A stretch of DNA of 64,000 nt from Clostridia bacterium (GTDB taxonomy: Bacteria > Bacillota > DSM-521 > Neomoorellales > Neomoorellaceae), in the NCBI GenBank assembly GCA_030154265.1, contig JASKKH010000001.1:14443-78442 (forward strand), given 5' to 3'. The translations under genes were made by a program, and so were the position numbers. The notes below the pieces were generated by a model. That model saw nothing but the letters and a program-made list of their open reading frames with translations, had not been told where the DNA came from and made no database searches. Below, piece after piece: positions 3,178 through 56,335 of the stretch (its first letter is position 1; every line of letters starts with the position of its first letter).

Positions 3178-4353
3178 TTAATAAATTATTGTTTGAGCAA
3201 AGCTTTCTCCGGATAAATTATAAGGTACCCCTAATAAATCTGCTACAGTTGCCCCAAGGTCAGCAAAAGTTGAACGAGTAGGAATTTTAGTAGGTTTAAT
3301 ACGGTCACCATAAACTAAAACAGGTACATGCTCTCTAGAATGGTCTGTACTGGGAGTAGTTGGATCACAACCATGGTCTGCAGTTATAATTAAAACATCA
3401 TTCTTATTTAAGGCATCTAATAAATCAGGGATTCGAGCATCAAAGTCTTCAAGGGCAGAAGCATAACCATCAACATCATTACGATGACCATACTGCATAT
3501 CGAAATCTACTAGATTAGTAAAAATCAATCCAATTTTTCCTTCACGCATAAAATTACATGTCTGATCGACACCATCCATATTGTCATGGGTATAAATCCA
3601 TCGAGTAATTCCCCGACCAGCAAAGATATCTTTTATCTTCCCTACGGCCATTACCTCCAAACCAGCTTCACTTACAGCATCTAACAAAGTAGGTTTGGGA
3701 GGAACTAGAGAAAAATCGTGACGTCGGTCGGTTCGTACAAAGTTTCCGGGTTTCCCTATAAAGGGCCTGGCAATAACTCGACCTACGGCATGTTCACCCT
3801 TTAATAGCTTACGGGCAATTTTACAGATTTCATATAATTCTTGCACTGGGATAACATCTTCATGAGCCGCAATTTGAAAAACGCTATCAGCCGAGGTATA
3901 AACAATAGGCTTTCCTGTCTTTATATGTTCAGCCCCTAGCTCCTCAATAATGGCTGTACCAGAAGCCGGTTTATTACCTAATACTTCTCGCCCTATTTCT
4001 TTTTCGAAAGCTTCAATTATTTCTTTAGGAAATCCATTTGGATATACAGGAAAAGGTTTATCTAATATTAAACCTGACAATTCCCAATGCCCACTTGTTG
4101 TATCTTTACCAGCTGATTTAGAGGCCATTTTTCCGTAAGCTGCCTCTGGCTTTTCTGCAGACTTTATATTTCTTAGTTCAATAATATTACCAATACCTAA
4201 CCGTTCTAGATTAGGTAATTTCAAATGTACTCTCTCAGCAATATTACCTAACGTATTACTACCTTCATCGCCATATTTGTCAGCATCGGGCAAAGCGCCA
4301 ACACCAACACTGTCCAAAACAATAAGAACAACTCTATCTATTGACACTTTCAA
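3178..4353 (-). CDS. deoB: Phosphopentomutase
   Basis: 391 aa with [23 protein letters not shown] and [10 protein letters not shown] motifs of the metal-dependent phosphopentomutase family. Confidence 0.9.
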
Positions 4354-16293: not shown

Positions 16294-17994
16294 TCATTTT
16301 TTAAGATTTGATTCTTCTAGTAAGGTTAAGGCATGTTTTTTTGCCATATTGCTTGTTTTTCCGGATAATAATCTGGCTATTTCCACAACACGAGCTTCTT
16401 TATCTAATTTTTCTACTATAGTAAAAGTACGACCATCTTCAACTGCTTTATTAACCAAATAATGTTGGTTTGCAAAAGCTGATAATTGTGCAGAATGAGT
16501 AATACAAAAGACTTGGCGTTGGCTACCTATATTAGCAAGGGCATGTGCCACTTCCCGTGCAGCAGCACCACCTATTCCGGAATCAATTTCATCAAAAATC
16601 AGGGTTGGAATAGCATCGACACTTGCTAAAATACTTTTTAAAGCCAACATAACTCGTGACATTTCGCCACCAGAAGCAATCTGAACCAATGGCTGACTTC
16701 CTTCCCCTGGATTTGGTTGGAACAAAAATGTTATGTTATCCAAACCTGTTGGCCCAGTCTCAGCTGCTGCAAAATCAATTTTGATTTGTGCCTGTGGCAT
16801 AGCCAATTTTTTTATAAATGAATTTATATCTTTCTCTATTTTTTTAGCAGCTTCCTTACGCTTTTTACTTAAATTATTTGCTGCTTTGCTATATTCTTTT
16901 TCAATTTTTTTAATTTCTTGTTCCAAAACAGCTGCCTGACTTGTACTCTCGTCTAAATTTTCTAAAGTAGCAGCTATCTCATTTCTATACGCTAAAATTT
17001 CATCAATAGTAGCTCCATATTTACGCTTTAGTTTTTTTATTAGTTCTAAACGTTCCTCAATTGCACTTAGCTTTTCTGGGTCATATTCTAAATTTTCTCC
17101 ATAACTTCGAAGGTTATGTGCAACTTCCTCTACTTCCACAACTGCATTTTTTAGCATCTCTTGCCACGGTTGTAATTCTGGATCAACTGTTACCATAGAT
17201 TCTAATTCTGAAATTGCTTTGTTTATCTGATCAAAAGCCGAAATACCTTCTTCTCCATATAGAGCTTTATGAATAGTTACCGATCCACTAGCTAACTTTT
17301 CAGCACTGTTTAAGATATCTCTTTGATGGTATAGTTCATCTTCTTCATTAGAACTTAAATTGGCAGAATCAATTTCATTAAGTTGAAAATTCAAAAAATC
17401 CTGTTGCCGTTCACGTTCCCTGATATTATCACACAATGATTTATACTTTTTTTGTAAATTCAACCAATTATTATAAAGCTCTTTGACCTTGTTCCTTTCG
17501 TCTAATAAGCCCGCAATACTATCTAACATATCCCTTTGATAATCAGGTCGTAAAATGGACTGGTAAGAATGCTGACCGTGTATATCCACTAAAGCCTGGC
17601 CTAATTTTTGGTACATGCTTAAGGTTACACTTCGACCATTAACTCGACAGGTATGACGACCTTTACGATTAATTTCACGACTTAATAAGAGACTGTCATC
17701 TTCTTCACAGGGTAATCCAAGTTCATCTAAAATATTTTTTATTTCTGGTAAATTATCTATACGGAAAAAGCCTCTTACTACAGCACGATCAGCCCCAGCA
17801 CGAATATATTCAGCTGAGGCCCTTGCTCCCACAAGTAGTCCTATGGCATCTACTATAATTGATTTTCCTGCCCCGGTCTCGCCAGTAAAAACCGTAAAAC
17901 CTGGCTCCAGGTTTAGCTGCAGTGATTCAATTAAAGCAAAATTCTCAATTTGCAGTTCCTGGAGCATAGTCTCAACCTTCCTTAATTTCTTCAA
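16294..17994 (-). CDS. recN: DNA repair protein RecN
   Basis: 566 aa SMC-like protein with Walker A GETGAGKS, a long coiled coil, signature ASGGEMSR and Walker B LIFDEIDSG. Confidence 0.93.
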   Translation of the reverse strand: MKKLRKVETMLQELQIENFALIESLQLNLEPGFTVFTGETGAGKSIIVDAIGLLVGARASAEYIRAGADRAVVRGFFRIDNLPEIKNILDELGLPCEEDDSLLLSREINRKGRHTCRVNGRSVTLSMYQKLGQALVDIHGQHSYQSILRPDYQRDMLDSIAGLLDERNKVKELYNNWLNLQKKYKSLCDNIRERERQQDFLNFQLNEIDSANLSSNEEDELYHQRDILNSAEKLASGSVTIHKALYGEEGISAFDQINKAISELESMVTVDPELQPWQEMLKNAVVEVEEVAHNLRSYGENLEYDPEKLSAIEERLELIKKLKRKYGATIDEILAYRNEIAATLENLDESTSQAAVLEQEIKKIEKEYSKAANNLSKKRKEAAKKIEKDINSFIKKLAMPQAQIKIDFAAAETGPTGLDNITFLFQPNPGEGSQPLVQIASGGEMSRVMLALKSILASVDAIPTLIFDEIDSGIGGAAAREVAHALANIGSQRQVFCITHSAQLSAFANQHYLVNKAVEDGRTFTIVEKLDKEARVVEIARLLSGKTSNMAKKHALTLLEESNLKK

Positions 17995-18430
17995 ATTTTT
18001 TCAAAACAGTAGGAACAGCTTCCTTGGGTTTAACAATTACAAGTATAGTATCATCACCGGCTACTGTACCAATAATTTCAGGCCAGGACATATTATCTAA
18101 GCATGAAGCTATTGCATGGGCCGTTCCCGGTAAAGTCCGAATTAAAATTAAATTTTCACTATCATCTATTTTAATAATAGAGTCATTAAAGAAACGTTGT
18201 AACCTACTATAGGCATTAATCACCCTTTGCTCAGGAGGAGCCGCATAACAATATAAATTGTCTCCTACAGCAACTTTTACCAATCCTAGTTCTTTTATAT
18301 CCCGGGAGATAGTAGCCTGGGTTACTTCTAGACCACGGCGGCGTAATTCCTGAACTAATTGATCTTGGGTAGATATTGGAATACCAGCTATTAGATCAAG
18401 GATTAACTTTTGCCGTTTGGTCTTAGTCAT
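17972..18430 (-). CDS. argR: Arginine repressor
   Basis: 152 aa with a winged helix (QATISRDIKELGLVKV) and a C-terminal hexamerisation/arginine-binding domain (GTVAGDDTILV). Confidence 0.9.
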   Translation of the reverse strand: MTKTKRQKLILDLIAGIPISTQDQLVQELRRRGLEVTQATISRDIKELGLVKVAVGDNLYCYAAPPEQRVINAYSRLQRFFNDSIIKIDDSENLILIRTLPGTAHAIASCLDNMSWPEIIGTVAGDDTILVIVKPKEAVPTVLKKFEEIKEG

Positions 18431-19274
18431 CCTGCCTATATCTCCCTTCCCTTAGCTTTTCCCGTACTACATCATAAAAATTACTATTTAATCTGATAAT
18501 CCGTGTTGGTATTTCATCCTTTGTAACAGTAACAATACTACCTTTATCCAAGTCTATCTCTTCCTGTCCATCAACAGTAAGCATAACATTATTATCGTTA
18601 ATTTTAACCTTAATTTCTTTTTCCCCAGAAACAACCAAAGGTCTGGCATATAGACTATGGGGACATATAGGTGTAATTATCATGACTTGGAGTTCCGGAG
18701 AAACCAAAGGACCACCAGCGGATAAGGAATAAGCAGTCGAACCAGTTGGTGAAGCTATAATCAAGCCATCAGCTCTATAAGTATCTAAGTATGATTGACA
18801 TACATAAGTTTCCAAACGTAATGGGGATACATTTTTTTTAGTAATAACCACATCATTTAAGGCCTTATAAGTTGAATTGCTTCCCGGACATTTAACTGAA
18901 GCTGAAAGCATCATCCGCTCTCTAACCTGATAATCACCAGCTATTAACTTTTCTATCGCAGGACGCAAATCTTTTAGTTCAACTTCAGTTAAAAATCCAA
19001 GATGACCCATATTAATACCCAAAAGAGGTGTGCCGGTATTCTTAACGAGATGGGCTGCCCTAAGAAATGTCCCATCTCCTCCAAGAACCAAAACGCATTC
19101 TGCAGTTGCTAACTCTTTTGGGGATACACCTTTTTCAGGATAACCCAATGCTGTTGCTTTATCAGCACATATCATTACCTCGACGCCAAAACTTTCGAGA
19201 CAGGTTATTAACTTCATAGTTACTTCTCGAGCTTTGGGTTTGCTTAGGTTAGCCACCACACCAATCCGTTGCAA
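18423..19274 (-). CDS. nadK: NAD kinase
   Basis: 283 aa with GGDGTFL and NxGxLGFL motifs. Confidence 0.9.
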   Translation of the reverse strand: MQRIGVVANLSKPKAREVTMKLITCLESFGVEVMICADKATALGYPEKGVSPKELATAECVLVLGGDGTFLRAAHLVKNTGTPLLGINMGHLGFLTEVELKDLRPAIEKLIAGDYQVRERMMLSASVKCPGSNSTYKALNDVVITKKNVSPLRLETYVCQSYLDTYRADGLIIASPTGSTAYSLSAGGPLVSPELQVMIITPICPHSLYARPLVVSGEKEIKVKINDNNVMLTVDGQEEIDLDKGSIVTVTKDEIPTRIIRLNSNFYDVVREKLREGRYRQDD

Positions 19275-19343
19275 AAAACTCCCCTCACTTCTTTCCCCTT
19301 AACATATCTGTTTTATTTTCCCAATAAATTTCTATATGAATAT

Positions 19344-20156
19344 TTATTTTAATTCTTGGTGGGCTGAAGCTACTACCTGATCTATTAACGATTTACATTC
19401 TGCCATTGTTAAAACCTTACCTTTAAATCCTAACCATAAAAGAAATTCAATATTACCTTTAGGTCCTGTTATAGGCGAGTAGCTTAAACCTAAAATATTT
19501 ATGTTTAGTTTAGAAACTTCGAGTAAAACCTCTCTCAAAATCTCTTTATGCGTTTCTGGTTTGCGTACTACGCCCTTTTTCCCTACCCTATCGGGTCCAG
19601 CTTCAAATTGTGGTTTTACCAAAGCGATTATTTCACCATCAGGTTTAAGACAACGAATAATATTGGGTAGGACCTTATTTAACGAGATAAAGGCAAGATC
19701 TATAGTAATTACATCGGCTAATTCTCCCAATGTTGTAGGTTCTAAATAACGGACATTTGTTCTCTCCAGGACCACTACTCTGGGGTCTTGACGTAAAGAC
19801 CAAGCTAATTGCCCATATCCAACGTCTACTGCATAAACCTTAGCTGCACCATGCTGTAAAGCGCAATCGGTAAAACCCCCAGTTGAAGCTCCACAATCAA
19901 TAACAATTTTACCATTCAAATCTATGTTAAAAGTATTAAGTGCCTTTTCAAGCTTTAAACCTCCACGGCTGACATATGGTAAGGGCTTACTATTTAATCG
20001 AATTTGTGCATCAGCAGGCACAGAAGCTCCAGGTTTATCTATTTTAATATCGTTAACCATAACTTCTCCTGCCATTATTGAAGCCCGTGCCTGCTCTCTG
20101 CTTTTAAAATATCCTTTATTTAATAACAATACATCTAGCCGCTGTTTACCCACCAT
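19344..20156 (-). CDS. tlyA: TlyA-family rRNA 2'-O-methyltransferase (S4 plus FtsJ domains)
   Basis: 270 aa with an S4 RNA-binding N-terminus ([18 protein letters not shown]) and SAM-binding motif [11 protein letters not shown]. Confidence 0.85.
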
Positions 20157-22068
20157 AAATCTCCTTGATATTTAGTTTCTGCCGTGTAAAACTTCTCCTG
20201 TTTTTTAACATATTTTGAACAGCTTTCTTAATACCACTGGAAGTCAACCCTAAATGCTCTCTTAATATTTTGGGTTTACCATGCTGGATAAATTCATCAC
20301 CAATACCTAACCTTTGAACTTTTACGTTTTCCCTGCCAGAGGAAGCAAGTAGTTCAAGAACAGCGCTGCCAAAACCACTTGCTAAAGAATGTTCCTCTAC
20401 AGTAATTAGGTGGCCAGTTTTATCTGCCCAGCTAAGAATTAAATCCTCATCTAATGGCTTTACAAAGCGTGGGTTGATAACTGCAGCTTCTATACCTTTA
20501 TCTGCTAATTCTTCAGCTGCCGTTAGAGCTTCGTAGACCAATGGGCCAAGTGCTAAAATAGTTACATCTTTACCCTGGCGCAATACTTCACCTTTTCCTA
20601 AGGGAACAGGTCTAGCTGTCCCTGTTAAGGGGACGCCAACACCTGCACCACGTGGGTAACGAAATGCAATGGGGCCATCGTATTGAAGTGCCGTGACCAA
20701 CATATGCCTTAGTTCCTGCTCATCTTTGGGTACCATAATCACCATACCCGGTACACATCGCAGGAACGATAAATCAAAAACTCCCTGGTGAGTTTCACCG
20801 TCTTCACCCACTAATCCAGCCCGATCAATGGCTAGAACCACAGGTAAGTCCATTAAAGCTATATCATGAATTATCTGATCAACTGACCGTTGTAAAAAAG
20901 TAGAATACATAGCTACAACTGGCTTAAGTCCGGTAGCTGCTAATCCTGCAGCCAAAGTTAAAGCATGGGGTTCGGCAATTCCTACATCATAAAAACGTTT
21001 GGGGAAACGTTTGGCAAAGGGAGTCAGGCCTGTCCCATCAGGCATTGCAGCAGTTATAGCAACAATCTCTTTGTTCTTTTCTCCCTGACGAACTAATTCG
21101 GCTCCAAATACAGAAGTAAATGTAGGTGGTCCCTCTTTGGGTGGTAACTCCCCTGTTTTTGGATCAAAGGGCCCAACACCGTGAAATTTGGCAGGTTCTA
21201 ACTCTGCTGGCCGGTAACCTTTCCCTTTGGTTGTTACAGCATGAACTAAAACGGGGCCCTTAGTATTTAACGCGTGTTTAAATACTTCCTGCAATTGTCC
21301 TATATTATGACCGTCTATTGGGCCTAGGTAAGTAAAACCTAGTTCCTCGAATAGCATGCCAGGAACCACTAAATATTTAAAACTATCTTTAATTCTATCA
21401 ATTATTTTTAAAACTCGACGCCCTACATGGGGTAATCGGTTAAGTAAACCTTCTATTTCTTCTTTGCCCCAAGAATACATAGGATCTGTGCGTAAACGAG
21501 ATAAATATGAAGCAAGCCCCCCAACAGGACCAGCAATGGACATTTCATTATCATTTAATACAACTATTAAATCAGTTTTAAGGTGCCCTGCATGGTTCAT
21601 AGCTTCAAAAGCCATGCCACCAGTCATAGCACCATCTCCAATAACAGCCACAACGTGATGATCTTCTCCTTTTAAGTCACGAGATAAAGCCATCCCTAAA
21701 GCAGCAGAAATAGATGTGCTGCTATGACCAGTGTCAAAGGCATCATAAGGACTTTCTGAGCGTTTGGGGAAACCGCTTAAACCCCCGTATTGGCGTAAAG
21801 TAGACATTTGTTCCCTTCGGCCCGTTAACATCTTATGGGTATAGCACTGATGCCCTACATCCCAGATAATTTTATCCTTAGAAAAATCAAATACACTGTG
21901 TAGAGCCAGTGTTAATTCAACAACCCCTAGATTTGGTGCTAAATGGCCACCTGTCTTAGATACATTTTGGATTAATTCTTGGCGTATTTCCCGAGCCAAC
22001 AATTCAAACTCATTTTGAGTCAACTTTTTTAAATCAGTTGGCTCTTTAATCATTTCCAACAGACTCAT
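20146..22068 (-). CDS. dxs: 1-deoxy-D-xylulose-5-phosphate synthase
   Basis: 640 aa with [17 protein letters not shown] motif [13 protein letters not shown]...NDN and a transketolase-like C-terminus. Confidence 0.95.
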
Positions 22069-22658
22069 TGACGCCGTCCTTTCTTGGAGCCATTTTTATA
22101 GTTGAAAGGCTGTTTTCTAGTCAATTTTTCTATTCCGTACAAGACCCTTCCAACGAAAAACACAATCTCATTAGCTTCACGTAATGCAAAACTCTTACCG
22201 AAAGCCTTACCGCCAACTGTAAATGCTGCTATAATAGCAGTCATTAAAGTATGAATAAGTGGATCTATTGAACCGTGCTGGCCTATTAAACGTAGGATAA
22301 TAACAGCCCCAATGGCTCCACTTAATGTACCACTAGCATCTCCTACTACATCACTTGAGAAGCTAGCAACACGGTCAGCATTACGAATAAGTCCAATAGC
22401 CTGACGAGCACCTGGTATTTTTTTAGCCGCCCTTGCATGAAAGGGGGCTTCTTTTGCAACAGCCGTTGCCACCCCGATAATATCAAAGATAATGCCAGTT
22501 AATATAATTAAAATTAATAATATAAAAGACAATATAATTGAGGTTATTTCCCCCAAAAATATTTGAGAACCATAACCCGCAACTAAAGCTATAAAAAAAG
22601 TCCCCCCGCCCATGGTCAGAGCATTTATTAAGGAGGATCTGCTTTGTATTTTTGCCAA
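22065..22658 (-). CDS. oapA: OLE-associated membrane protein A
   Basis: 197 aa, about 4 TM helices, TTG start. Located between the structured RNA region and dxs, exactly where oapA lies in OLE-containing Firmicutes. Confidence 0.7.
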
Positions 22659-22689
22659 AGTTTTATTCTGCCTCCAATTGGCAAAATTT

Positions 22690-23325
22690 TAACTTTTGGC
22701 AAGTGGTAACTGACCAGATAAATGTTATGGCTTAGGTCCAGTAGGTTTTCCCAACACCCTACCATACGTCGCCGTTATGGCGGTTTCCCTTTAAAGGGTG
22801 CCCTGCGCCGTTGCCGGTAGCAGAACTGGATTACCACTTAGCACATACTTTAATCCCTGGTCAGCCTTACAAACTGTAAACACTCTAGGAGTTTTCCTCA
22901 ACAATAACATTCATCTTCTAGCCTCTTTTGCAATAGAGGTTTCGCTAAGTAACGGTTCCGGCCAACCGTATTAAATATTATATATTGCTTCCACCCCTAC
23001 CGCTCAAGGCCAGGCTACACTGCAGCCAGCGTATACCAACTGCAGGTTTCTACCCCAAGCCATAGTACTTACTCTTGCCGTAAAGCTTTCCCACGAACTT
23101 GGGTCTCCACGGTGGAAGGGTCAGTGTCTACATGCCATTGTAGGCTGCCCCCCACCTTAACTCCCAGTACCAACCCCCGACTGGGCGTCGGCAGCCAGCA
23201 CCAAGAACTTCATCGGTGTGCCCTTGACGGATTTTTAGGCCCGCCTTCAAAGATGATGTTATTGACTAGAATAATGCACCACTTGCCGAAAATAATATTC
23301 ATTATTAATATAAATTAGTGTGTTT
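22690..23325 (-). ncRNA. ole: OLE (ornate, large, extremophilic) RNA
   Basis: About 630 nt with no credible sense ORF. Visibly GC-richer than all neighbouring spacers and rich in complementary segments. Canonical synteny ispA-[RNA]-oapA-dxs. The ends are approximate. Confidence 0.75.
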
Positions 23326-23332
23326 ATGAAGT

Positions 23333-23361
23333 ATTATAAGATATTTATCAATAAACAGCAA
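23333..23361 (-). promoter_or_regulatory. Candidate sigma-A promoter in front of the OLE region
   Basis: Minus strand reads TTGCTG (23356-23361), 17-nt spacer, TATAAT (23333-23338). Confidence 0.45.
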
Positions 23362-23402: not shown

Positions 23403-23440
23403 GCTGTTAAAAGGTAAGCATGATATGCTTACCCTTTTAG
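23403..23440 (-). terminator. Terminator-like hairpin after ispA
   Basis: aagg(g)taagcat / atgcttacctt stem with a 3-nt loop, followed by tttt-aac on the minus strand, about 25 nt after the ispA stop. Confidence 0.45.
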
Positions 23441-23463: not shown

Positions 23464-24342
23464 TTAGCCTTGCCGGTCTATAATATACTCAGTTAAAAGT
23501 TCTAATGGTTTAGCTTTTGAACCTAAATGCAAAATAAAACCCTTTGCTTCCTCACATAGTTCTCTTGCCTTTTTTTGGGCACCAGCTAAACCTAAGTAAG
23601 CGGGGTAAGTTGCTTTATTACGGGCAACATCCATACCGCTTTTTTTGCCCATCTCCTTAAAATCACCTTTTACATCTAAAATATCATCAGTGATTTGAAA
23701 AGCCAATCCTAGATTTTCACCATAACGCGTAAGTAAGTCTAGTTGTTCATCATTGGCTCCTCCAAGGATTGCCCCTAAACGTAAACAAACCCGAATAAGA
23801 CTTCCTGTCTTATGGGTATGTATGTACTTAACTGTATCAATTGTAACCTGTTTTCCTTCAGACTCAATATCAATTACCTGACCGCCAATCAGTCCTTGGC
23901 TGCCAGCAGCTTGAGATAATTCAGTTATTGATTGAATAACCCTACCAGGTTCAACTTTTACATTAGCAACAAGACCAAAAGCATGGGTAAGAAGAGCATC
24001 TCCCGCCAAAATTGCTATTGCTTCACCATAAACCTTATGACAGGTGGGTTTGCCTCGACGATAGTCATCGTCATCCATAGCTGGTAAGTCATCATGGATA
24101 AGAGAATAAGTATGAATAAACTCTACAGCACAGGCTGCTGGCAATAGAGGTTCTATAGGACTACCTACCGCTTCACCTGAAGCCAAAACCAAAATGGGTC
24201 TTAATCTCTTCCCACCAGCTAAAAGGCTGTAACGCATTGCTTGATGAATAACCGGAGGATAGTCATTGTCTTTTGGTAAACTTGTTTCCAAAGCTTTATT
24301 AATTAATTCCCGGTACTTTGTTAAATATTTATCAAGCTCCAT
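23464..24342 (-). CDS. ispA: Farnesyl diphosphate synthase
   Basis: FARM DDLPAMDDDDYRRG and SARM DDILD motifs. Start placed at MELDKYL (ATG 24342), which has GGAGGTGA 6 nt upstream. The longer ORF runs to 24375. Confidence 0.9.
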   Translation of the reverse strand: MELDKYLTKYRELINKALETSLPKDNDYPPVIHQAMRYSLLAGGKRLRPILVLASGEAVGSPIEPLLPAACAVEFIHTYSLIHDDLPAMDDDDYRRGKPTCHKVYGEAIAILAGDALLTHAFGLVANVKVEPGRVIQSITELSQAAGSQGLIGGQVIDIESEGKQVTIDTVKYIHTHKTGSLIRVCLRLGAILGGANDEQLDLLTRYGENLGLAFQITDDILDVKGDFKEMGKKSGMDVARNKATYPAYLGLAGAQKKARELCEEAKGFILHLGSKAKPLELLTEYIIDRQG

Positions 24343-24583
24343 CACCCTCACCTCCTGGTAAGGACATATGTTCAACCACTATCTCTCCGTTTTTAATGGA
24401 AAGTGCCTTTAACCTGCCTTCCGCTTCTTTAAGACGCTTACGACATAGACCTACCAATTTTATACCTTCTTGATAATAAGATAGTGAATCTTCCAAGGTT
24501 ACCCCTTCACTCTCAAGAATCCTGACAACTTCCTCTAACTTTTTTAAAGCCTCTTCAAAAGTTAACCGTTCCTCTTCAGGCAT
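24332..24583 (-). CDS. xseB: Exodeoxyribonuclease VII small subunit
   Basis: 83 aa with a helical XseB signature (FEEALKKLEEVVRILE). Follows xseA with an overlap. Confidence 0.88.
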   Translation of the reverse strand: MPEEERLTFEEALKKLEEVVRILESEGVTLEDSLSYYQEGIKLVGLCRKRLKEAEGRLKALSIKNGEIVVEHMSLPGGEGDGA

Positions 24584-25797
24584 AATTCTCCTCCTTCTAT
24601 ATCCTCAACCAGACATTTGAGGCAACCTTGTCTTAACAAAACTTCCACCTTTTCTCCTGGTAATACTTCATTGCTAAACTGTAAAGGAGGACCACCTTGG
24701 GGTCGTCGGCAAACAGCATAACCCCTATTTAGAACAGCCAAGGGGCTAACTGTCTCAAGACGAGCCGTCAGAAAAGCTAATGTTTTATCTAATTTATCAA
24801 CTCTATTTTTAAATGAAACTAAAAGGCGGTGTTCCAACCCATCTAAGTATTGTTGACGATAATATAACTCCTGTTGGGGCCGAGTCATGCCTCGGCTATT
24901 TACTAATCTTTCTAGTCGCTCTTTAGCAATTTGCAAGCGGTGTTCAGTTGCCTGTTTAGCTCTACTAGACAGTAAAGCCAGACGTTTTTCTAATTCTTCC
25001 CTTACCGGAACAACTATTTCTGCAGCAGCCGAAGGTGTAGGTGCACGTCTATCTGCAACCCGATCAGCTAATGTAACGTCCGTCTCATGACCAACTGCAG
25101 TAACCACCGGAACCCGGCTAGCATAAACAGCTCTTGCTACTACCTCGGTATTAAAAGCACTTAAGTCTTCAGCAGAGCCACCACCGCGACCAATAATAAT
25201 CACGTCAACGTCTTCTTGTTGGTTTAAAATTTCTAAAGCTATAGCCAATTCTTCTGGTGCCGTATCACCCTGAACAGATGAAGGTGCTAAGAGTAAACTT
25301 ATCCCTGGAAAACGCCGTCTGCTGACAGTCACTATATCGCGTAAGGCAGCGCCATGAGGAGAAGTAATTACCCCTACCCGACGAGGTAATAAAGGTAGAG
25401 GCCTTTTACGATCTTCAGCAAAAAGTCCTTCTTTTTCCAATCGGTCAGCTAATTCTTTAAGAGCTAAGCTGTTAATTCCAACCCCCGCAGAAAGAATTTC
25501 TTCTACATAAAGTTGATAAACTCCACCCCGTGGGTAAACAGCTACATAACCCCTTGCTATTACCTCAAGTCCATCCCTGATATTTAATAAAAGTTGCCGA
25601 CTACGGTTCTGAAACATTACACAACGCAAAGTTGCTGTTTTATCTTTTAATGTAAAATAGAGATGTCCAGAAGAAGGACAACGAAGATCCGATATTTCTC
25701 CCTTAACCCAGACATTTGCCAAACGACCATCGTTACTTAATAGATATTGTAAATAAGCGGTAAGTTCCCTTACCGCTACAACCTTTTGACCAATCAC
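24562..25797 (-). CDS. xseA: Exodeoxyribonuclease VII large subunit
   Basis: 411 aa with an OB-fold N-terminus (VWVKGEISD...HLYFTLKD), catalytic core (IIIGRGGGS) and a coiled-coil C-terminus. Confidence 0.92.
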
Positions 25798-26639
25798 TTA
25801 CGACTGGCCGCCTCAACCGTATTCTTAAGCAGCATAGCAATTGTCATGGGACCAACGCCACCTGGAACCGGAGTTATCCAGCTAGCCTTTTGAGCCGCAC
25901 TCTCAAAATGAACATCACCGACAAGTTTTTTTGGTGCGATACGGTTAATTCCAACATCAATAACTACTGCGCCTTCTTTTATCATATCCCCGGTAATCAT
26001 TTCAGGTTTACCCACGGCCGCTATGAGAATATCAGCCTGGCGACATTCCTCTGCCAAATTTTTAGTACGCGAATGGCAGATGGTTACCGTAGCATTATGT
26101 GATAAAAGCATCATGGCAACAGGTTTACCAACAATATTACTACGTCCAACAACCACTGCTTTTTTACCTGTTAGATCAATCCCTGCCTTTTCTAATAAAA
26201 CCATACAACCATAGGGCGTACAGGGATAAAAACATTTATCTCCAATAATCAAGTTACCTACATTAGCAGGGGTAAACCCATCAACGTCTTTTTCAATGGA
26301 AATAGCATCAATAACAGTTTTCTCATCAATACGATCAGGTAAAGGTAATTGAACTAAAATACCATGAATTTTAGGATCATTATTTAGTTTATCAATCAAA
26401 TTCAATAATTCTTCCTGGCTTGTTTCAGCCGGCAAACGATGGACTAATGAATAGATACCCACTTCTTCACAAGCACGATGCTTACCTCGGACATAAACTT
26501 CAGAAGCAGGATCATCTCCTACCAAAACAACTGCTAACCCCGGCGTAATTCCTCTTTCTTTTAATTTAAGAACTTCTTGTTTAACCTCATTACGTACTTC
26601 AGCAGCTATTTTTTTACCGTCAAGAATTTGAGCTGACAT
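25794..26639 (-). CDS. folD: Bifunctional methylenetetrahydrofolate dehydrogenase/cyclohydrolase
   Basis: [22 protein letters not shown] and PGGVGPMT motifs. ATG at 26639 has GAGGAGG 7 nt upstream. The ORF extends to TTG at 26645. Confidence 0.92.
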
Positions 26640-26702
26640 GAACAATCCTCCTCATTTCTATCTTTTATATATAACGTTTAATAATTTACTTCATCTAATA
26701 AA

Positions 26703-35329: not shown

Positions 35330-35491
35330 ATGCTCTTTAAAGACCGCCACGATGCCGGTTGTCGTCTGACCAAGGCCCTAGAGGCCTACCGGGGCCGGCA
35401 ACCCCTGGTACTGGCCAATCTTCAAACCTTTATCGAGCGAGAAGTGGCGGAAATCAAACGGCGGCCCTTTACGCTCTATCTGCATATATAA
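35330..35491 (+). pseudogene. Internally deleted phosphoribosyltransferase-like remnant (53 codons)
   Basis: MLFKDRHDAGCRLTKALEAYRGRQPLVLA resembles the N-terminus of the 'putative phosphoribosyl transferase' family. It then jumps to a C-terminal-like tail (EREVAEIKRR). GC-rich relative to surroundings. Confidence 0.35.
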
Positions 35492-35510
35492 GACCTCACT
35501 TCCAGCCAAC

Positions 35511-35542
35511 CTTTACCCTATACTTCCTTTACCCTATACTTC
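35511..35542. repeat. Perfect 16-bp tandem duplication at the 3' end of the cas6 remnant
   Basis: ctttaccctatacttc at 35511-35526 and again at 35527-35542. The length is not a multiple of 3, and the duplication creates the present stop codon. Confidence 0.95.
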
Positions 35543-35907
35543 CCCATCCCAAAAGTAACGGCTTTACCAACGTGCGTCCATTGTCCAATTATTAATAACG
35601 GCCATAACTCTGCCAGTTCCCCTTGATAGGTCACCTTTCCCACCACACCCCCAAGCTTCATCCTGGTATCCTGACGAGATGAATAGCGTTCCCAGTCTAC
35701 CCACCTGGTATCTTGAAAAACCGTTTTGACTTGCTCTGCCCGTTTGATTTCCTCCTGAAAATCTCCTTCCGGTTTAATACCATGGTGAATGAAAGCACTG
35801 CCAAACCCTCCCCGTAGAGTAGAACCTTTGTATAGAGGTAAGTTTAATCCTTTTTCACCTGCTTCCAGTGTTACCTCATACTTAGCTACTTGAAATTCTG
35901 AAAACAT
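35518..35907 (-). pseudogene. cas6: Orphan, internally deleted Cas6 (RAMP endoribonuclease) remnant
   Basis: 129 aa. The N-terminus has LPLYKGSTLRGGFGSAF and the C-terminus has RYSSRQDTRMKLGGVVGKV...HVGKAVTFGMGKY (glycine-rich loop). The middle of a normal roughly 250-aa Cas6 is missing. No CRISPR array or other cas genes are in the window. Confidence 0.55.
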
Positions 35908-48591: not shown

Positions 48592-49122
48592 CTAATTATT
48601 TTCGAAAACAGCCTCAATACTGAAAGTAAGGTTTTTGCCATTATGGCCCACTTTTTTAAGTGTTACAGTTTGCCAGTCACCGGTAGTTTGAAGGTTATTG
48701 ATAAAATCCCCCACTTCCTCGAGGGAAGTACTACCACCAATAAGGGTTAATAGCCCTTTAGATTTATCCTCTCTTAAGGTAGTTAACCATACACCTTCAG
48801 GTATATTTTGATTTATGGTAGTTAATATAACATGCCAGCTCCGACCTTCTTTTAAAATTTGTTGAAGCTCATTTTTCTTCTGTTGTAAACCCTTAATTTT
48901 AGCTTTTGTATCCTGAACCTTCTGGGCTTGAGGTAGATATAAGGCAATTTCATCCTTAACCCTGTTGACCTTCCTGGAAGTTAGCCACATATGACCGCAA
49001 AATATCAGATATAAAAGTAAAACTATTCCTATCAAAACAATAATTAACATATTTCTTCCGGACTTGACCCAGGGTGTTTTGGGAATAAATTCTGGAGGCA
49101 ATAAATTTATTTCTGTCTTCAT
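48592..49122 (-). CDS. pilN: Type IV pilus assembly protein PilN
   Basis: 176 aa with an EINLLPPEF N-terminal motif, one TM helix and a coiled coil. Confidence 0.82.
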   Translation of the reverse strand: MKTEINLLPPEFIPKTPWVKSGRNMLIIVLIGIVLLLYLIFCGHMWLTSRKVNRVKDEIALYLPQAQKVQDTKAKIKGLQQKKNELQQILKEGRSWHVILTTINQNIPEGVWLTTLREDKSKGLLTLIGGSTSLEEVGDFINNLQTTGDWQTVTLKKVGHNGKNLTFSIEAVFENN

Positions 49123-50018
49123 AATTTACGCCCCCTTAAAGCCAGGCCTATGGCCGTGGTAAGGTCAGGACTAACCTGATAATCTTGTATTCCAGGTCGA
49201 CCTGCCCCCGCTAATATACCAAGTTGTTCCTGACACTCAGCTATCAAACCTTCCATTTGCGCTATATCACCTGTAACAATTAAACGTTTCGGTTCAAAAC
49301 TTCTCTTTGACTGGGACCGTAAAAAAACTAAGGAACGTTGGATTTCCCTGGTTAACTCAAATGCCCCAGAAACAGGTGATTGAGTCAGTTCCTCTTTATT
49401 GATAGTTATTACGCGACTAAAAAGGGGTTGTCCATCTGCCACCAAAACTATATTGCCCCATTGACCACTGATATCCGTAATAATTACTTCACCACTAATA
49501 TCTTTTCTAAGAGCACGACAAAGAGCCAAAGGTACTAAATCAATAGCTGCTAAATCCAAGCCAGCTGACTTAAACAACTGATAAATTTGGTTAACCAGTT
49601 CTATAGGAGCTGCGGCCAGGATAATGGGCATTCTATTATCTGTCTGCTTCAAATTATTATCTAAAACTGCCCAATCAACTACCATATCCTGGACTCCAGT
49701 GGGTATATGGTTTTCTATTTCATAGGCCATACCTTCCTTTAACTCAGACTCAGACATACGAGGAAGGCTAAAATAGCGAACGATTACCATTTCACCAATA
49801 ACGGTAGTCACAGCCTGCCGACCCTTGTAGCCTAATTCTGATGCTACTTCAGCAATAGCTGCGACCATAGCATCAAAATCATCGAAACCTCCAGGCGGAG
49901 CTGGAACTCTAGCAGTCAATAATTCATTTCCCTGGTAAACAGCAGCCTTAATATTACCAGAGCCAATATCAATGCCTATCAAAGAGTTTCTAGGCGAAAA
50001 CAACCGGAGTAATTTCAT
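49119..50018 (-). CDS. pilM: Type IV pilus assembly ATPase-like protein PilM
   Basis: 299 aa with an actin-like fold (GIDIGSGNIKAA). Overlaps pilN. Confidence 0.85.
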   Translation of the reverse strand: MKLLRLFSPRNSLIGIDIGSGNIKAAVYQGNELLTARVPAPPGGFDDFDAMVAAIAEVASELGYKGRQAVTTVIGEMVIVRYFSLPRMSESELKEGMAYEIENHIPTGVQDMVVDWAVLDNNLKQTDNRMPIILAAAPIELVNQIYQLFKSAGLDLAAIDLVPLALCRALRKDISGEVIITDISGQWGNIVLVADGQPLFSRVITINKEELTQSPVSGAFELTREIQRSLVFLRSQSKRSFEPKRLIVTGDIAQMEGLIAECQEQLGILAGAGRPGIQDYQVSPDLTTAIGLALRGRKL

Positions 50019-50065
50019 ATTTCCTCCAAATCATATAAAATTAACTATAATAGTTAATCCAGTTA

Positions 50066-50387
50066 TAGCTTGTTGAATAATTATTTTAGGTGCTAAAGAA
50101 GGAAAAAACTATCGCGATCTGGTAATGGTAAAATCACAGCTAACACCAAGCCAGAAAGGATAGATTTACTTGATTTTAGCACTAAACATTACTCGTGAAA
50201 ACCCTCTATTTCAGTTATTTTCAAAAATCGATTTTCTTTTGCAAGGATTTAAGGAGAATTCTCCTAAGCCTACTCCTCGCCAAGGCAGACCCCAACTTTT
50301 TAGTGATGTACAAATTTAGAATTGACATTGATCAAGTACAAAATTAAGTAGTTTAACTTTACTGTGGGTTATTTATTCAACAAGCTA
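50066..50387. mobile_element. 322-bp MITE-like element bounded by perfect 15-bp inverted repeats
   Basis: tagcttgttgaataa (50066-50080) and its exact reverse complement ttattcaacaagcta (50373-50387). No ORF inside. The right IR supplies the stop codon of the transposase stub. Confidence 0.5.
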
Positions 50388-50447
50388 ATCACTTAAAAAA
50401 AGATAGAGCAAAAGTTCTTCATTTACGGTAATCTTATATTGAGCCAT
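50385..50447 (-). pseudogene. 20-codon N-terminal stub of an IS256/mutator-type transposase
   Basis: GAGGAGAATTGAA-ATG then MAQYKITVNEELLLYLFLSD*. This resembles the 'M.Q..ITLD.E.L..LF' start of mutator-family transposases and is cut off at the inverted repeat. Confidence 0.4.
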
Positions 50448-50770
50448 TTCAATTCTCCTCTCGTTAGTTTTTTTGCTAATTACTATTCTAACTGAGGAAT
50501 TTGTAAATGGCTCATTTTTTTAAGAAACTATTTTACACAATTATAAAAGCTTAACTTTAACATCGGCAGCCTAATTCAGTTGTCAAAGAGTTAAAAAAGA
50601 AAATTGACTATTAACAGGATTAGTATGCCCTTTTCTGAGAAAACACCAATCAATATCTAATGGCCTTTGTGCGTTAATGGGAAAATAAACCAAATTCATC
50701 CCTTTTACCATTAGCCGAACTTGTTGTCCTGTTCTAATTTTGGAATTATGCAAAACTCTCTATTAAGAAT

Positions 50771-54982: not shown

Positions 54983-56185
54983 TTAACTTATACCACCAAA
55001 CACTGATAACATTGGAAGTAATATCGATATTACCACTAAGGCAACAACGCCACCTAAAGAAATAATTAATATGGGTTCAATAAGAGAGGATAATCGAGAC
55101 ACTGCCTCGTTTACTTCTCGTTCGTAAAAAACACTTATTTTGGTTAAAAGCTCATCCAAAGCTCCTGTTTCTTCCCCTACACTAATCATCTCTACTACCA
55201 TAGGTGGTAAAATACCACTTGCTTGTAAAGGTGTCGCTAAACTCTCACCATCTCTAACGCTCGTTTCCGCCATACCAATAGCTTCAGCAAGTACTACATT
55301 TCCAACAACCCGTCGGACTATCTCTAAAGCTGTTAACACCGGTACACCACTCTTAATTAGTGTCCCTAAAGTACGACAAAAACGAGCAACACCCATTTTA
55401 TGGATAAGAGACCCGAATATCGGCAATTTTAATAAAAATCTATCAAACCAATATCGTCCCTCTGGATTTTGGCGTAAGAACTTAAGCCCAAAAATGCCAC
55501 CAATAACAAACAATAAAATCAGTGGCCATAAGTATCGAAATAACTCACTTATAGCTAACACTGATCGTGTTAGCCATGGTAACGGAACGTTCATATCATT
55601 TAATATGGTTTCAAATGTTGGCAATACAAAAATCAACAAAAAGATAACTGCTAAAACAGCTACAACACTAACAAAAGCCGGATATGTCATGGCTGATTTA
55701 ACTTTTTCCTCAATTTCATGTTCCCGTTCCAAGTGTTCAGAAAGACGTTCCAGGTTATCATCAAGGGAACCCGCCAGTTCTCCAGCCTCAACAGTATGAA
55801 TAACCAGAGGTGGAAAAATTTTCGTTTCCTTTTCCAGAGCTCTGTAAAAAGACTCACCTGACTCTAAACTAATCAGAATTTTCCCAATACTGCCTCGTAG
55901 TAAATCCTTTTCTACTTGTTTATGCAGAACATGTAAAGCTGAAATAATCGGCAAGCCAGCTTGTAACATAGTTGCCAGTTGGCGACAAAAAACAGCCAAA
56001 TCATGCCTATTTACTGCTTGCTGAAAGAGCTGTCGCTTTCGAGATTGAGAGGTAACGGCCTTGCAAGAAGTAACAAAAATACCTTTTTGACGCAACTCCA
56101 TTACGGCCTCTTCCTGACTTGCTGCCTCAATTGTCCCGCCTACAACCTCCCCATTGGCATTCCGCCCCCGGTAGGCAAAATTCAT
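54983..56185 (-). CDS. pilC: Type IV pilus platform protein PilC
   Basis: GspF-family double-domain membrane protein. Start placed at MNFAYRGRN (ATG 56185, GGAGG Shine-Dalgarno). The longer ORF to 56356 would read through the riboswitch and terminator. Confidence 0.88.
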   Translation of the reverse strand: MNFAYRGRNANGEVVGGTIEAASQEEAVMELRQKGIFVTSCKAVTSQSRKRQLFQQAVNRHDLAVFCRQLATMLQAGLPIISALHVLHKQVEKDLLRGSIGKILISLESGESFYRALEKETKIFPPLVIHTVEAGELAGSLDDNLERLSEHLEREHEIEEKVKSAMTYPAFVSVVAVLAVIFLLIFVLPTFETILNDMNVPLPWLTRSVLAISELFRYLWPLILLFVIGGIFGLKFLRQNPEGRYWFDRFLLKLPIFGSLIHKMGVARFCRTLGTLIKSGVPVLTALEIVRRVVGNVVLAEAIGMAETSVRDGESLATPLQASGILPPMVVEMISVGEETGALDELLTKISVFYEREVNEAVSRLSSLIEPILIISLGGVVALVVISILLPMLSVFGGIS

Positions 56186-56202
56186 AAAGATCCTCCGAAC
56201 AT

Positions 56203-56335
56203 AAAAATCAAAAAGCCACCGATAGCAGTGGAAAATATGACATTCCCGGCAGCTCGGCGACCATGGAACTCGTCTACAGGCCCGTAGCTTTGCGTCCCTG
56301 ACTTTCGCCAGGTTTGCCCTAAACAGAAATGTTAA
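56203..56335 (-). promoter_or_regulatory. c-di-GMP-I (GEMM-I) riboswitch with intrinsic-terminator expression platform
   Basis: Minus strand reads AGGGCAAACCUGGCGAAAGUCAGGGACGCAAAGCUACGGGCCU..., matching the conserved GGCAAACC-stem-GAAA-stem-GGGACGCAAAGCC.CCGGGCCU core of GEMM-I (compare the Vibrio Vc2 aptamer). It is followed by CCACUG-CUAU-CGGUGG and CUUUUUGAUUUUU (56203-56232), 18 nt before the pilC ATG. Confidence 0.8.

What the first reader, a model, noticed from the sequence alone, without database searches (positions are those of the whole stretch)
22065..23361. OLE RNA and oapA in the canonical ispA-OLE-oapA-dxs context, with signs of its own transcription unit
About 800 nt between ispA (stop 23464) and the 4-TM protein gene 22065-22658 carry no credible ORF on the transcribed minus strand. 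The inner roughly 630 nt are visibly GC-richer than any other spacer in the window.

The region is full of complementary segments:
- aagtggtaa 22701-22709 with ttaccactt 22831-22839
- ctgaccag 22710-22717 with ctggtcag 22857-22864
- hairpin cgcc-gttat-ggcg at 22770-22782
- hairpin ccgac-tgggc-gtcgg at 23177-23191

The order folD-xseA-xseB-ispA-[RNA]-[small 4-TM protein]-dxs-tlyA-nadK-argR-recN is the order described for OLE RNA and OapA in Bacillus halodurans and anaerobic or extremophilic Firmicutes. OLE is one of the largest conserved bacterial ncRNAs whose biochemical function is still unresolved, and it is routinely missed by annotation.

In addition, a terminator-like hairpin (23403-23440) and a TTGCTG-17-TATAAT promoter (23333-23361) sit between ispA and the RNA.
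Basis: partly seen in the sequence, partly recalled or inferred. Interest (0 to 1): 0.7.

Follow-up and report, generated by a model that had tools for sequence, protein, structure and literature searches.

The report
Ordinary OLE RNA gene with oapA

Summary
Confirmed and ordinary. Rfam's OLE model (RF01071) matches window 22687-23298 (minus strand) end to end: 485.8 bits against a gathering score of 50, E 1.8e-139.

The 197-aa gene 28 nt downstream (22065-22658) is OapA. It is 41% identical to a published OapA sequence, is predicted to have four membrane helices and a lysine/arginine-rich loop, and shows the weak CNNM/DUF21 likeness the literature describes for OapA.

The gene order folD-xseA-xseB-ispA-OLE-oapA-dxs-tlyA-nadK-argR-recN is real. 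OLE sits directly upstream of oapA in 66 of 79 related loci.

The window's OLE differs from 60 others at only 3 of 211 strongly conserved columns.

The TTGCTG-17-TATAAT promoter is supported by comparison. Its CTTGC and TATAATA blocks are the only invariant blocks in an otherwise poorly conserved spacer among Moorella-group relatives. An exact TATAAT lies upstream of OLE in 54 of 60 loci. A proximal OLE promoter was already shown experimentally in Bacillus halodurans (Wallace 2012).

The hairpin after ispA is real, but it is a weak terminator and is not conserved as one.

Novelty: already known. Interest: low.

The parts
23464..24375 (-). ispA (polyprenyl synthetase), last gene of the upstream folD-xseA-xseB-ispA block
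   Evidence: Pfam PF00348, 211.5 bits. folD is at 25794-26645, xseA at 24562-25797 and xseB at 24332-24583 in the same call.
23409..23437 (-). A-tract/13-bp stem/U-tract hairpin 27 nt after the ispA stop; a possible weak terminator or a 3' stabiliser of the upstream transcript
   Evidence: The 69-nt region folds at -21.5 kcal/mol, z = -3.8. It is not listed by the terminator scan, because only 4 U follow the GC core. Relatives have different GC-rich hairpins here without U-tracts.
23355..23360 (-). -35 hexamer TTGCTG of the proximal ole promoter
   Evidence: CTTGC is invariant in the alignment of 8 Moorella-group spacers, whose mean column identity is 61%. The spacing to the -10 is 17 nt.
23332..23337 (-). 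-10 hexamer TATAAT of the proximal ole promoter; the start of transcription is inferred near 23325
   Evidence: TATAATA is invariant in alignment A3. An exact TATAAT lies within 130 nt upstream of OLE in 54 of 60 loci, against 5.9% of random windows. A proximal OLE promoter is proven in B. halodurans (PMC3413148).
22687..23298 (-). OLE RNA gene, full length
   Evidence: Rfam RF01071, 485.8 bits (gathering score 50), E 1.8e-139, model positions 1-616 of 616. MFE z = -10.1. 208 of 211 columns that are at least 95% conserved are kept.
23278..23287 (-). P1, 5' strand GGCAAGUGGU (preceded by UUUU at 23292-23289, which can extend the helix)
   Evidence: It pairs with 22707-22698. Compensatory changes occur in 6 of 10 pairs and 94.5% of cells are paired.
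22698..22707 (-). P1, 3' strand ACCACUUGCC (followed by AAAA at 22697-22694)
23229..23239 (-). A-rich hairpin loop CCUAAAAAUCC, the loop named L4 in the cryo-EM papers (dimer contact)
   Evidence: Invariant in all aligned OLEs. The role is taken from PMC12286853 and PMC12265935.
22952..22969 (-). Tip of P9 (P9.3): ACGGUU / GGCCGG / AACCGU, with the self-complementary GGCC loop (dimer kissing loop). The middle of P9 (about 22970-22988) is short and AU-rich here.
   Evidence: The Rfam alignment shows a 7-nt deletion and non-standard pairs in this arm, as do the alignment and the MFE fold. The role of the loop is from PMC12265935.
22803..22823 (-). P13 hairpin with the GNRA loop GCAA (22814-22811) and the bulged A at 22818: the OapB binding-site features
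   Evidence: Rfam alignment. The requirement for a GNRA loop plus a single-nucleotide bulge is from PMC7936274.
22761..22781 (-). P14.1 hairpin with the GCGA loop (22772-22769)
   Evidence: Rfam alignment. Covariation is visible in alignment A2. It is described as a secondary OapB site in PMC7936274.
22671..22675 (-). Shine-Dalgarno GGAGG of oapA
   Evidence: Read from the sequence. The same GGAGG-12 nt-TTG arrangement is present in relatives.
22065..22658 (-). oapA, 197 aa, TTG start; four predicted membrane helices and a K/R-rich loop at residues 67-100
   Evidence: 41% identity, E 3e-31, to a published OapA. Homologues start with MAK or MAR. AlphaFold2 model at pLDDT 79 with long helices. 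Hydropathy and charge counts. The best Foldseek hits are CorB/CorC membrane domains.
20146..22068 (-). dxs; its ATG overlaps the oapA stop (ATGA), so the two genes are probably translationally coupled
   Evidence: Pfam DXP_synthase_N, 423 bits. The overlap is read from the sequence.
16294..20156 (-). tlyA-like rRNA methyltransferase (19344-20156), nadK (18423-19274), argR (17972-18430) and recN (16294-17994), packed with overlaps or short gaps
   Evidence: Pfam. Gaps of -11, 69, -8 and -23 nt.

Best explanation
Window 22687-23298 (minus strand) is a functional, full-length gene for OLE (ornate, large, extremophilic) RNA. 22065-22658 is oapA, the gene for its four-helix membrane partner. Both sit between ispA and dxs in the conserved Bacillota cluster.

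Shown here:
- Family membership of the RNA and of the protein.
- Conserved synteny.
- A covarying closing helix, P1.
- Intact loops and motifs that published work assigns to dimerisation (the A-rich L4 loop and the GGCC loop of P9.3) and to OapB binding (the GNRA loop plus bulge of P13).
- A conserved promoter footprint (TTGCTG-17-TATAAT).

Inferred for this locus:
- Transcription starts near 23325. It runs through a roughly 35-nt AU-rich leader and OLE, then continues into oapA, dxs (ATGA overlap) and probably tlyA-nadK-argR-recN. No terminator follows OLE.
- Read-through from folD-xseA-xseB-ispA adds to this and is at most dampened by the hairpin at 23437-23409.
- The stable RNA of about 610 nt is released by trimming to the P1 helix.

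Taken from published work on Halalkalibacterium (Bacillus) halodurans and Clostridium, not tested here:
- The RNA dimerises and is held at the membrane by OapA dimers, together with OapB and OapC, which are encoded elsewhere.
- The particle helps cells cope with alcohols, cold, excess Mg2+ and poor carbon sources.
- Its chemistry is still unknown. The CNNM-like fold of OapA points to a link with Mg2+ or ion handling.
For: RNA:
- Rfam OLE 485.8 bits, full length; fold z = -10.1.
- 208 of 211 conserved columns are retained, within the range of 0-10 deviations seen in 60 other OLEs.
- P1 covariation.

Context:
- nhmmer finds OLE directly upstream of the oapA homologue in 66 of 79 loci, with the same flanking genes.

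Protein:
-.

Promoter:
- Footprint in the Moorella group.
- TATAAT in 54 of 60 loci, 40 of them with the TGn extension, against 5.9% in random windows.
- Promoter, stability and single-product data for B. halodurans are in PMC3413148.

Independent assembly:
- A separate assembly (L082) is 100% identical over 1501 nt, so the sequence is not an assembly artefact.

Host:
- The host looks like a spore-forming relative of Moorella. Flanking proteins are 66-86% identical to Moorella and Neomoorella, and spoIVB, spo0A and spoIIIA lie in the window.
Against: - There are no expression data. The transcript ends, the start site and the processing are all inferred.
- The -35 matches the consensus at only 3 of 6 positions and there is no TGn extension.
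- The hairpin after ispA lacks a proper U-tail and is not conserved as a terminator. Only 8 of 45 spacers have any hairpin followed by Ts, and most of those are poor.
- The middle of P9 is shortened and AU-rich.
- Two nucleotides that are invariant in the 60 other OLEs are changed: G to U at 23274 and C to G at 22883.
- oapB and oapC could not be looked for outside the window, and OapC and bS21 are not in it.
Confidence: 0.93

Rival explanations
1. OLE here is only a long structured 5' leader of the oapA-dxs mRNA, a cis-acting element, and not a separate stable RNA.
For: No terminator-like site lies between the OLE 3' end (22687) and the oapA start (22658). The only minus-strand sites listed are inside oapA. 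The Shine-Dalgarno sequence follows OLE by about 12 nt.
Against: In B. halodurans a single, very stable product of OLE size accumulates to levels near RNase P and SRP RNA, and it acts with OapA in trans-complementation (PMC3413148). A covarying helix (P1) closes the RNA, as in processed stable RNAs. A hairpin near the oapA ribosome-binding site is not conserved in relatives.
Confidence: 0.04
2. OLE has no promoter of its own in this organism and is made only by read-through from the folD-xseA-xseB-ispA operon. The TTGCTG-17-TATAAT match is then chance in AT-rich DNA.
For: The consensus scan did not list the site. The region gives 6 promoter-like hits against 4.4 expected from shuffles. The review states that the H. 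halodurans cluster is transcribed as one polycistronic RNA (PMC12265935). The hairpin after ispA is a poor terminator.
Against: CTTGC and TATAATA are the only invariant blocks in a spacer of 61% mean identity across 8 species. An exact TATAAT is present in 54 of 60 ole loci, against 5.9% of random windows. The proximal promoter raises OLE expression more than 100-fold in B. halodurans.
Confidence: 0.05
3. The locus is a decaying, non-functional OLE copy.
For: There are two unique substitutions at otherwise invariant nucleotides, and P9 is shortened and AU-rich.
Against: Three deviations in 211 conserved columns is within the normal range. Coverage of the model is full length. oapA is intact, with all 25 invariant residues of the family alignment. 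The promoter is conserved.
Confidence: 0.02

Closest known systems
OLE RNA (Rfam RF01071) and OapA of Halalkalibacterium (Bacillus) halodurans C-125, the experimentally studied case
   Same: RNA family, about 610 nt, oapA immediately downstream, neighbours from isoprenoid, DNA-repair and argR/recN functions, and a proximal sigma-A-type promoter directly upstream (PMC3413148; PMC12265935).
   Different: The host is an uncultured, low-GC (38%) relative of Moorella, not an alkaliphilic Bacillus. The leader between the -10 and P1 is longer: 59 nt to the conserved UAUUCUAGUC, against 20-35 nt in most loci. The -10 has no TGn extension. The middle of P9 is shorter. Nothing has been tested experimentally.
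OLE RNAs of Clostridium acetobutylicum and C. botulinum (cryo-EM dimers; Kretsch 2025, Wang 2025)
   Same: The A-rich L4 loop, the L5.1 GCCCA and L6.1 AAUGGCAUG loops and the GGCC loop of P9.3, all used for dimer contacts, are present unchanged. OapA is 41% identical to the sequence used for modelling.
   Different: The arm of P9 that forms the 'arch' is shorter and AU-rich here.
'Full-length' OLE class of Fernando and Breaker 2024 (against variants 1 and 2)
   Same: P7, P8, P9 and the P13 OapB site are all present. The score is far above the range for the variants (PMC11332333).
   Different: Their cut-offs (390, 310 and 235 bits) refer to their own model, not to Rfam's, so the class assignment is by features and not by their score.
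CNNM/CorB/CorC/MpfA Mg2+ transporters (DUF21 membrane domain), compared with OapA
   Same: Weak sequence match to PF01595 (20.2 bits). The six best structural matches are MtCorB and the CorC membrane domain (probability up to 1.00, TM 0.44-0.56).
   Different: OapA has no CBS-pair or CorC_HlyC domains. The match is below Pfam's cut-off and the Foldseek E-values are 0.025 or worse. OapA is not filed as a CNNM transporter.
Other large ornate bacterial RNAs (GOLLD, ROOL, raiA)
   Same: Large, highly structured non-coding RNAs of unknown chemistry.
   Different: Unrelated in sequence and structure. No Rfam hit to them in the window.

Membership tests
OLE RNA (RF01071) | Covariance-model score above the curated gathering score, over the whole model | tested here: met
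   485.8 bits against 50, positions 1-616 of 616, not truncated.
OLE RNA (RF01071) | Retention of the many near-invariant nucleotides (about 25% of positions) | tested here: met
   208 of 211 columns that are at least 95% conserved among 60 other OLEs are identical.
OLE RNA (RF01071) | Conserved multi-stem secondary structure supported by covariation | tested here: met
   The consensus stems align. P1 was tested separately: 6 of 10 pairs have compensatory changes, 0 of 500 shuffles reach the observed score, and slid controls are far lower. The other stems were not counted individually.
OLE RNA (RF01071) | Gene lies immediately upstream of oapA, in the ispA/dxs neighbourhood | tested here: met
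   28 nt separate OLE from oapA. The same arrangement occurs in 66 of 79 loci.
OLE RNA (RF01071) | Host in Bacillota, typically anaerobic or extremophilic | tested here: met
   The nearest relatives are Moorella and Neomoorella. Sporulation genes lie in the window. The lifestyle of the organism itself is not known.
OLE RNA (RF01071) | Loops used for RNA dimerisation (L4 A-rich, L5.1/L6.1, self-complementary L9.3) | tested here: met
   CCUAAAAAUCC, GCCCA, AAUGGCAUG and GGCC are all present. Dimerisation itself was not tested.
OLE RNA (RF01071) | OapB site: P13 closed by a GNRA loop, with a single-nucleotide bulge | tested here: met
   GCAA loop at 22814-22811 and bulged A at 22818. The criterion is from PMC7936274.
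OLE RNA (RF01071) | Abundant, stable transcript of about 600 nt that localises to the membrane | not testable with these tools
   Needs RNA-seq, a northern blot or imaging.
OapA | Sequence homology to OapA proteins encoded next to OLE | tested here: met
   41% identity, E 3e-31, to the OapA of Kretsch 2025 Table S4 (that text is machine-read and may contain small errors). 446 homologues.
OapA | About 190-200 aa with four transmembrane helices | tested here: met
   197 aa. Hydrophobic segments at about 9-28, 30-70 (two helices in the model), 104-126 and 130-149. The AlphaFold2 model has helices at 6-37, 41-67, 94-127 and 133-160.
OapA | Conserved cluster of positive charges on a loop (proposed RNA-binding face) | tested here: met
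   Residues 67-100 carry 7 K/R against 2 D/E and are highly conserved. The C-terminal tail carries 8 K/R. The side of the membrane and the binding itself were not tested.
OapA | Binds OLE RNA and brings it to the membrane | not testable with these tools
   Needs binding assays or localisation experiments.
CNNM/CorC Mg2+ transporter (Pfam PF01595 plus CBS and CorC_HlyC domains) | Score above the Pfam gathering cut-off for the CNNM (DUF21) domain | tested here: not met
   20.2 bits against a cut-off of 28.4. No NCBIfam hit and no PDB sequence hit.
CNNM/CorC Mg2+ transporter (Pfam PF01595 plus CBS and CorC_HlyC domains) | Cytoplasmic CBS-pair and CorC_HlyC domains | tested here: not met
   The protein ends after the membrane domain and no such Pfam hits are found. 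The fold resembles only the membrane domain.

The most novel reading that the evidence does not exclude
A sigma-A promoter directly upstream of OLE is a near-universal built-in part of ole loci: an exact TATAAT in 54 of 60 loci, mostly in the extended TGnTATAAT form. In this Moorella-like lineage it takes a different, -35-dependent form with a longer leader, preceded by a hairpin after ispA. On this reading ole-oapA-dxs-(tlyA-nadK-argR-recN) would be a separately controlled, stress-responsive unit. The first enzyme of isoprenoid precursor synthesis (dxs, whose start overlaps the oapA stop) would then be co-regulated with the OLE particle. The promoter is proven for one species only. I did not find the generality or the lineage-specific form stated in the papers I read.
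Probability: 0.35. Interest if true: 0.3.

Novelty: already known. Interest (0 to 1): 0.15.

Why it matters
OLE is one of the largest conserved bacterial RNAs whose chemistry is still unknown, so each correctly placed copy helps comparative work. This copy adds little to the roughly 2,800 assemblies already catalogued (PMC11332333).

The practical value is annotation. In the public record the protein is called 'hypothetical', and the RNA is easy to miss.

Three comparative by-products may be of modest use to people working on OLE regulation and evolution:
- the near-universal proximal promoter;
- covariation in P1;
- loci that keep oapA but have no OLE next to it.

Tried and rejected
1. A hairpin around the oapA ribosome-binding site or start (22687-22648) as a translational switch. 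It is present in the window (-11.9 kcal/mol, z = -2.9), but relatives show nothing comparable (z between -1.3 and +0.4). Rejected as a conserved element.

2. The 3' strand covaries with the 5' end (P1), not with the invariant internal AAGUGGUAA.

3. It is mutually exclusive with the consensus P14.1 stem, which covaries.

4. A conserved intrinsic terminator after ispA. My own scan found a hairpin of -8 kcal/mol or better followed by at least 4 T in 8 of 45 spacers, and most of those were unconvincing. The scan is crude.

5. The scan's alternative promoter, TTCATA-18-AATAAT at 23330-23301. It lies in the non-conserved leader.

6. NCBIfam and PDB sequence searches with OapA found nothing.

7. OapC and bS21 homologues in the window: none. 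OapB was not searched, because no query sequence was available.

8. tRNA genes: none. CRISPR array near the Cas6 fragment: none, only short tandem repeats.

9. The two unique substitutions as assembly errors. A second assembly, from a run with a neighbouring accession number, is identical.

10. Searches were input errors and gave no data.
Full report
**Observation**

The 805-nt gap between the ispA stop (23464) and the TTG start of the 197-aa gene (22658) is real. It carries no minus-strand ORF of 50 aa or more.

A scan of the whole window against Rfam 15 gives one dominant hit: OLE (RF01071) at 22687-23298 on the minus strand. The score is 485.8 bits against a gathering score of 50, E 1.8e-139, covering model positions 1-616 of 616 without truncation. 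Folded alone, the segment reaches -236 kcal/mol, which is 10 standard deviations below dinucleotide shuffles.

The core has GC 0.48, against 0.384 for the window. It is not the GC-richest spacer, because 35341-35517 has GC 0.56.

- ctgaccag/ctggtcag and the ccgac-tgggc-gtcgg hairpin are consensus stems in the Rfam alignment.
- The 3' segment UUACCACUU pairs with the 5' end to form P1 (23287-23278 with 22707-22698), not with the internal AAGUGGUAA. Across 11 sequences, 6 of the 10 P1 pairs show compensatory changes and 94.5% of cells are paired. None of 500 shuffles reaches the observed covariation score, and slid controls are far lower. The internal segment never varies.
- The cgcc/ggcg hairpin is incompatible with the covarying consensus stem that closes a GCGA loop.

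**Neighbours**

Pfam confirms folD, xseA, xseB and ispA upstream, and dxs, a TlyA/FtsJ-type methyltransferase, nadK, argR and recN downstream. Further out lie spoIVB and spo0A on one side, and nusB, two Asp23 genes and spoIIIAE-AH on the other. From my own knowledge, this is the classical Bacillota nusB-folD-xseAB-ispA-dxs-argR-recN-spoIVB-spo0A region.

**The protein**

- The 197-aa product has 446 database homologues, nearly all unnamed or labelled 'CNNM domain-containing'. The closest named ones, at 70-79% identity, are from Moorella and Neomoorella. The identical sequence is recorded from a 'Clostridia bacterium' MAG as a hypothetical protein.
- It is 41% identical (E 3e-31) to the OapA sequence given in Supplementary Table 4 of Kretsch et al. 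2025.
- Hydropathy and an AlphaFold2 model (pLDDT 79) give four long membrane helices plus an amphipathic one. The loop at 67-100 carries 7 K/R and is highly conserved. The C-terminal tail carries 8 K/R. This fits the published description of OapA: four helices and a conserved positive cluster (PMC12265935).
- The Pfam match to CNNM/DUF21 is below the cut-off (20.2 against 28.4 bits). The six best Foldseek matches in the PDB are the membrane domains of MtCorB and CorC.
It is not one, because weak homology of OapA to the DUF21 domain of MpfA is published (PMC11332333).

**Comparison with other loci**

A scan of one genome per species with an OapA alignment returned 79 loci.
- nhmmer with the window's OLE finds OLE directly upstream of oapA, on the same strand, in 66 of them.
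- The flanking genes are the same.
- In an alignment of 61 full-length OLEs, the window differs from the rest at 3 of 211 columns that are at least 95% conserved: G to U at 23274, C to U at 23204 and C to G at 22883. Other sequences show 0-10 such differences.
- The two unique changes are reproduced in a separate assembly (L082, 100% identical over 1501 nt).
- The loops that the cryo-EM work assigns to dimer contacts are present: the A-rich L4, L5.1 GCCCA, L6.1 AAUGGCAUG and the GGCC loop of P9.3. So are the P13 GNRA loop with its bulge and the P14.1 GCGA loop, which are needed for OapB binding.
- The only visible peculiarity is a shorter, AU-rich middle of P9. The copy is still clearly of the 'full-length' kind, not variant 1 or 2.

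**Transcription unit: the promoter**

The promoter is TTGCTG (23360-23355), 17 nt, TATAAT (23337-23332). The simple scan misses it because the -35 has only 3 of 6 matches. Comparison supports it.
- In an alignment of the ispA-OLE spacers of the window and seven Moorella-group genomes (mean column identity 61%), the only invariant blocks are CTTGC and TATAATA, at fixed spacing.
- Across all loci, an exact TATAAT lies within 130 nt upstream of the conserved UAUYCUAGUC in 54 of 60. Forty of these have a TGn extension. The rate in random 130-nt windows of the same loci is 5.9%. The six exceptions have near-matches.
- This agrees with published work. In B. halodurans a proximal promoter raises OLE expression more than 100-fold, OLE is a very stable single product, and its 5' ends lie near P1. 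Some co-transcription with neighbours also occurs (PMC3413148; PMC12265935).

**Transcription unit: the hairpin and the downstream genes**

- The hairpin after ispA (23437-23409, 13 bp, z = -3.8) has only four Us. These pair with the preceding As, and no U-run follows.
- Relatives carry different GC-rich hairpins at this place without U-tracts, and my crude scan finds few terminator-like sites in 45 spacers.
- I read the hairpin as a weak or partial terminator, or as a 3' stabiliser. This is not settled.
- No terminator separates OLE from oapA.
- The oapA stop overlaps the dxs start (ATGA), and the following genes overlap or are closely spaced. Co-transcription of OLE with oapA-dxs and beyond is therefore likely. 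Release of the stable RNA by processing to P1 is inferred.

**Mechanism**

Identity and architecture are shown. The transcript boundaries are inferred. The cellular role is borrowed from H. halodurans genetics and Clostridium structures: an RNA dimer held at the membrane by OapA, acting with OapB and OapC, and contributing to tolerance of alcohol, cold, Mg2+ and poor carbon sources. The biochemical activity of OLE remains unknown in the field, and nothing here changes that.

**Verdict**

This is a typical full-length member of a well-described family in its typical context, with the typical promoter. Novelty: already known. Interest: 0.15.

Noticed in passing
window 56244-56327 (-): A c-di-GMP-I-GGC riboswitch aptamer (RF03167, 69.9 bits against a gathering score of 59). 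It lies between a PilT/PilB-type ATPase gene (56423-57430) and a PilC/T2SSF gene (54983-56230), inside a type IV pilus cluster. It therefore sits within the cluster, not at its head.
   Followed up: partly
L010, L016, L026, L032, L038, L039, L048, L061 (about 3400-4000 in each); also L029, L037, L047: Eleven loci from Desulfitobacteriaceae, Peptococcaceae, Dehalobacter and Desulfovirgula keep the oapA homologue between ispA and dxs but have no OLE there and no Rfam hit at gathering score. In eight of them a DUF212 (divergent PAP2) gene fills the gap. Six OLE-carrying loci have ispA-DUF212-OLE-oapA, so these eight look like simple absence of OLE. In L029, L037 and L047 ispA ends within roughly 30-150 nt of oapA, with no room for OLE. 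Whether OLE is elsewhere in these genomes could not be checked.
   Followed up: partly
window 35330-35907: A GC-rich stretch (35341-35517, GC 0.56 in a 38% GC window) holds a 53-codon plus-strand ORF with no Pfam hit. Next to it is a 129-aa fragment with only the C-terminal part of a Cas6 domain (35518-35907) and a 16-nt tandem duplication at the junction (35510-35543). No CRISPR array lies nearby. It looks like a scar of foreign DNA between spoIIIAH and yqeY.
   Followed up: partly
window 23274 and 22883 (-): There are two substitutions at nucleotides that are invariant in the 60 other OLEs examined: GCAGUAUUC to GCAUUAUUC, and CUAGACUGU to CUAGAGUGU. Both are reproduced in a second assembly. 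They may be useful natural variants, or they may be neutral.
   Followed up: yes
L001-L004, L019 around the tip of P9 (alignment A2, columns about 398-410): In Moorella and Neomoorella species the P9.3 loop reads CGCC (UCGCCGA) instead of the self-complementary GGCC found in the window and in most OLEs. The proposed P9 kissing contact would then have a central C-C mismatch in that genus.
   Followed up: no
L080, L081, L083 (contig ends at window 23247 and 22746): Three of four independent short-read assemblies of this organism break inside OLE. Conserved OLE segments shared with co-occurring relatives may fork the assembly graph, which would be one reason the RNA gets lost from MAGs.
   Followed up: no
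window 50019-50770: A 752-nt stretch (GC 0.31) with no ORF above 56 aa and no Rfam hit, inside the pilus cluster. It lies between a 299-aa gene (49119-50018), which I take from its sequence to be PilM-like (not searched), and a 450-aa protein gene.
   Followed up: no
window 22604-22621 (-), inside oapA codons about 13-24: A weak hairpin followed by a run of seven T is listed by the terminator scan, 40-55 nt into oapA. The T-run encodes the conserved TFFI and is kept in relatives, so it may be only a coding constraint. It could also limit read-through from OLE into oapA.
   Followed up: no
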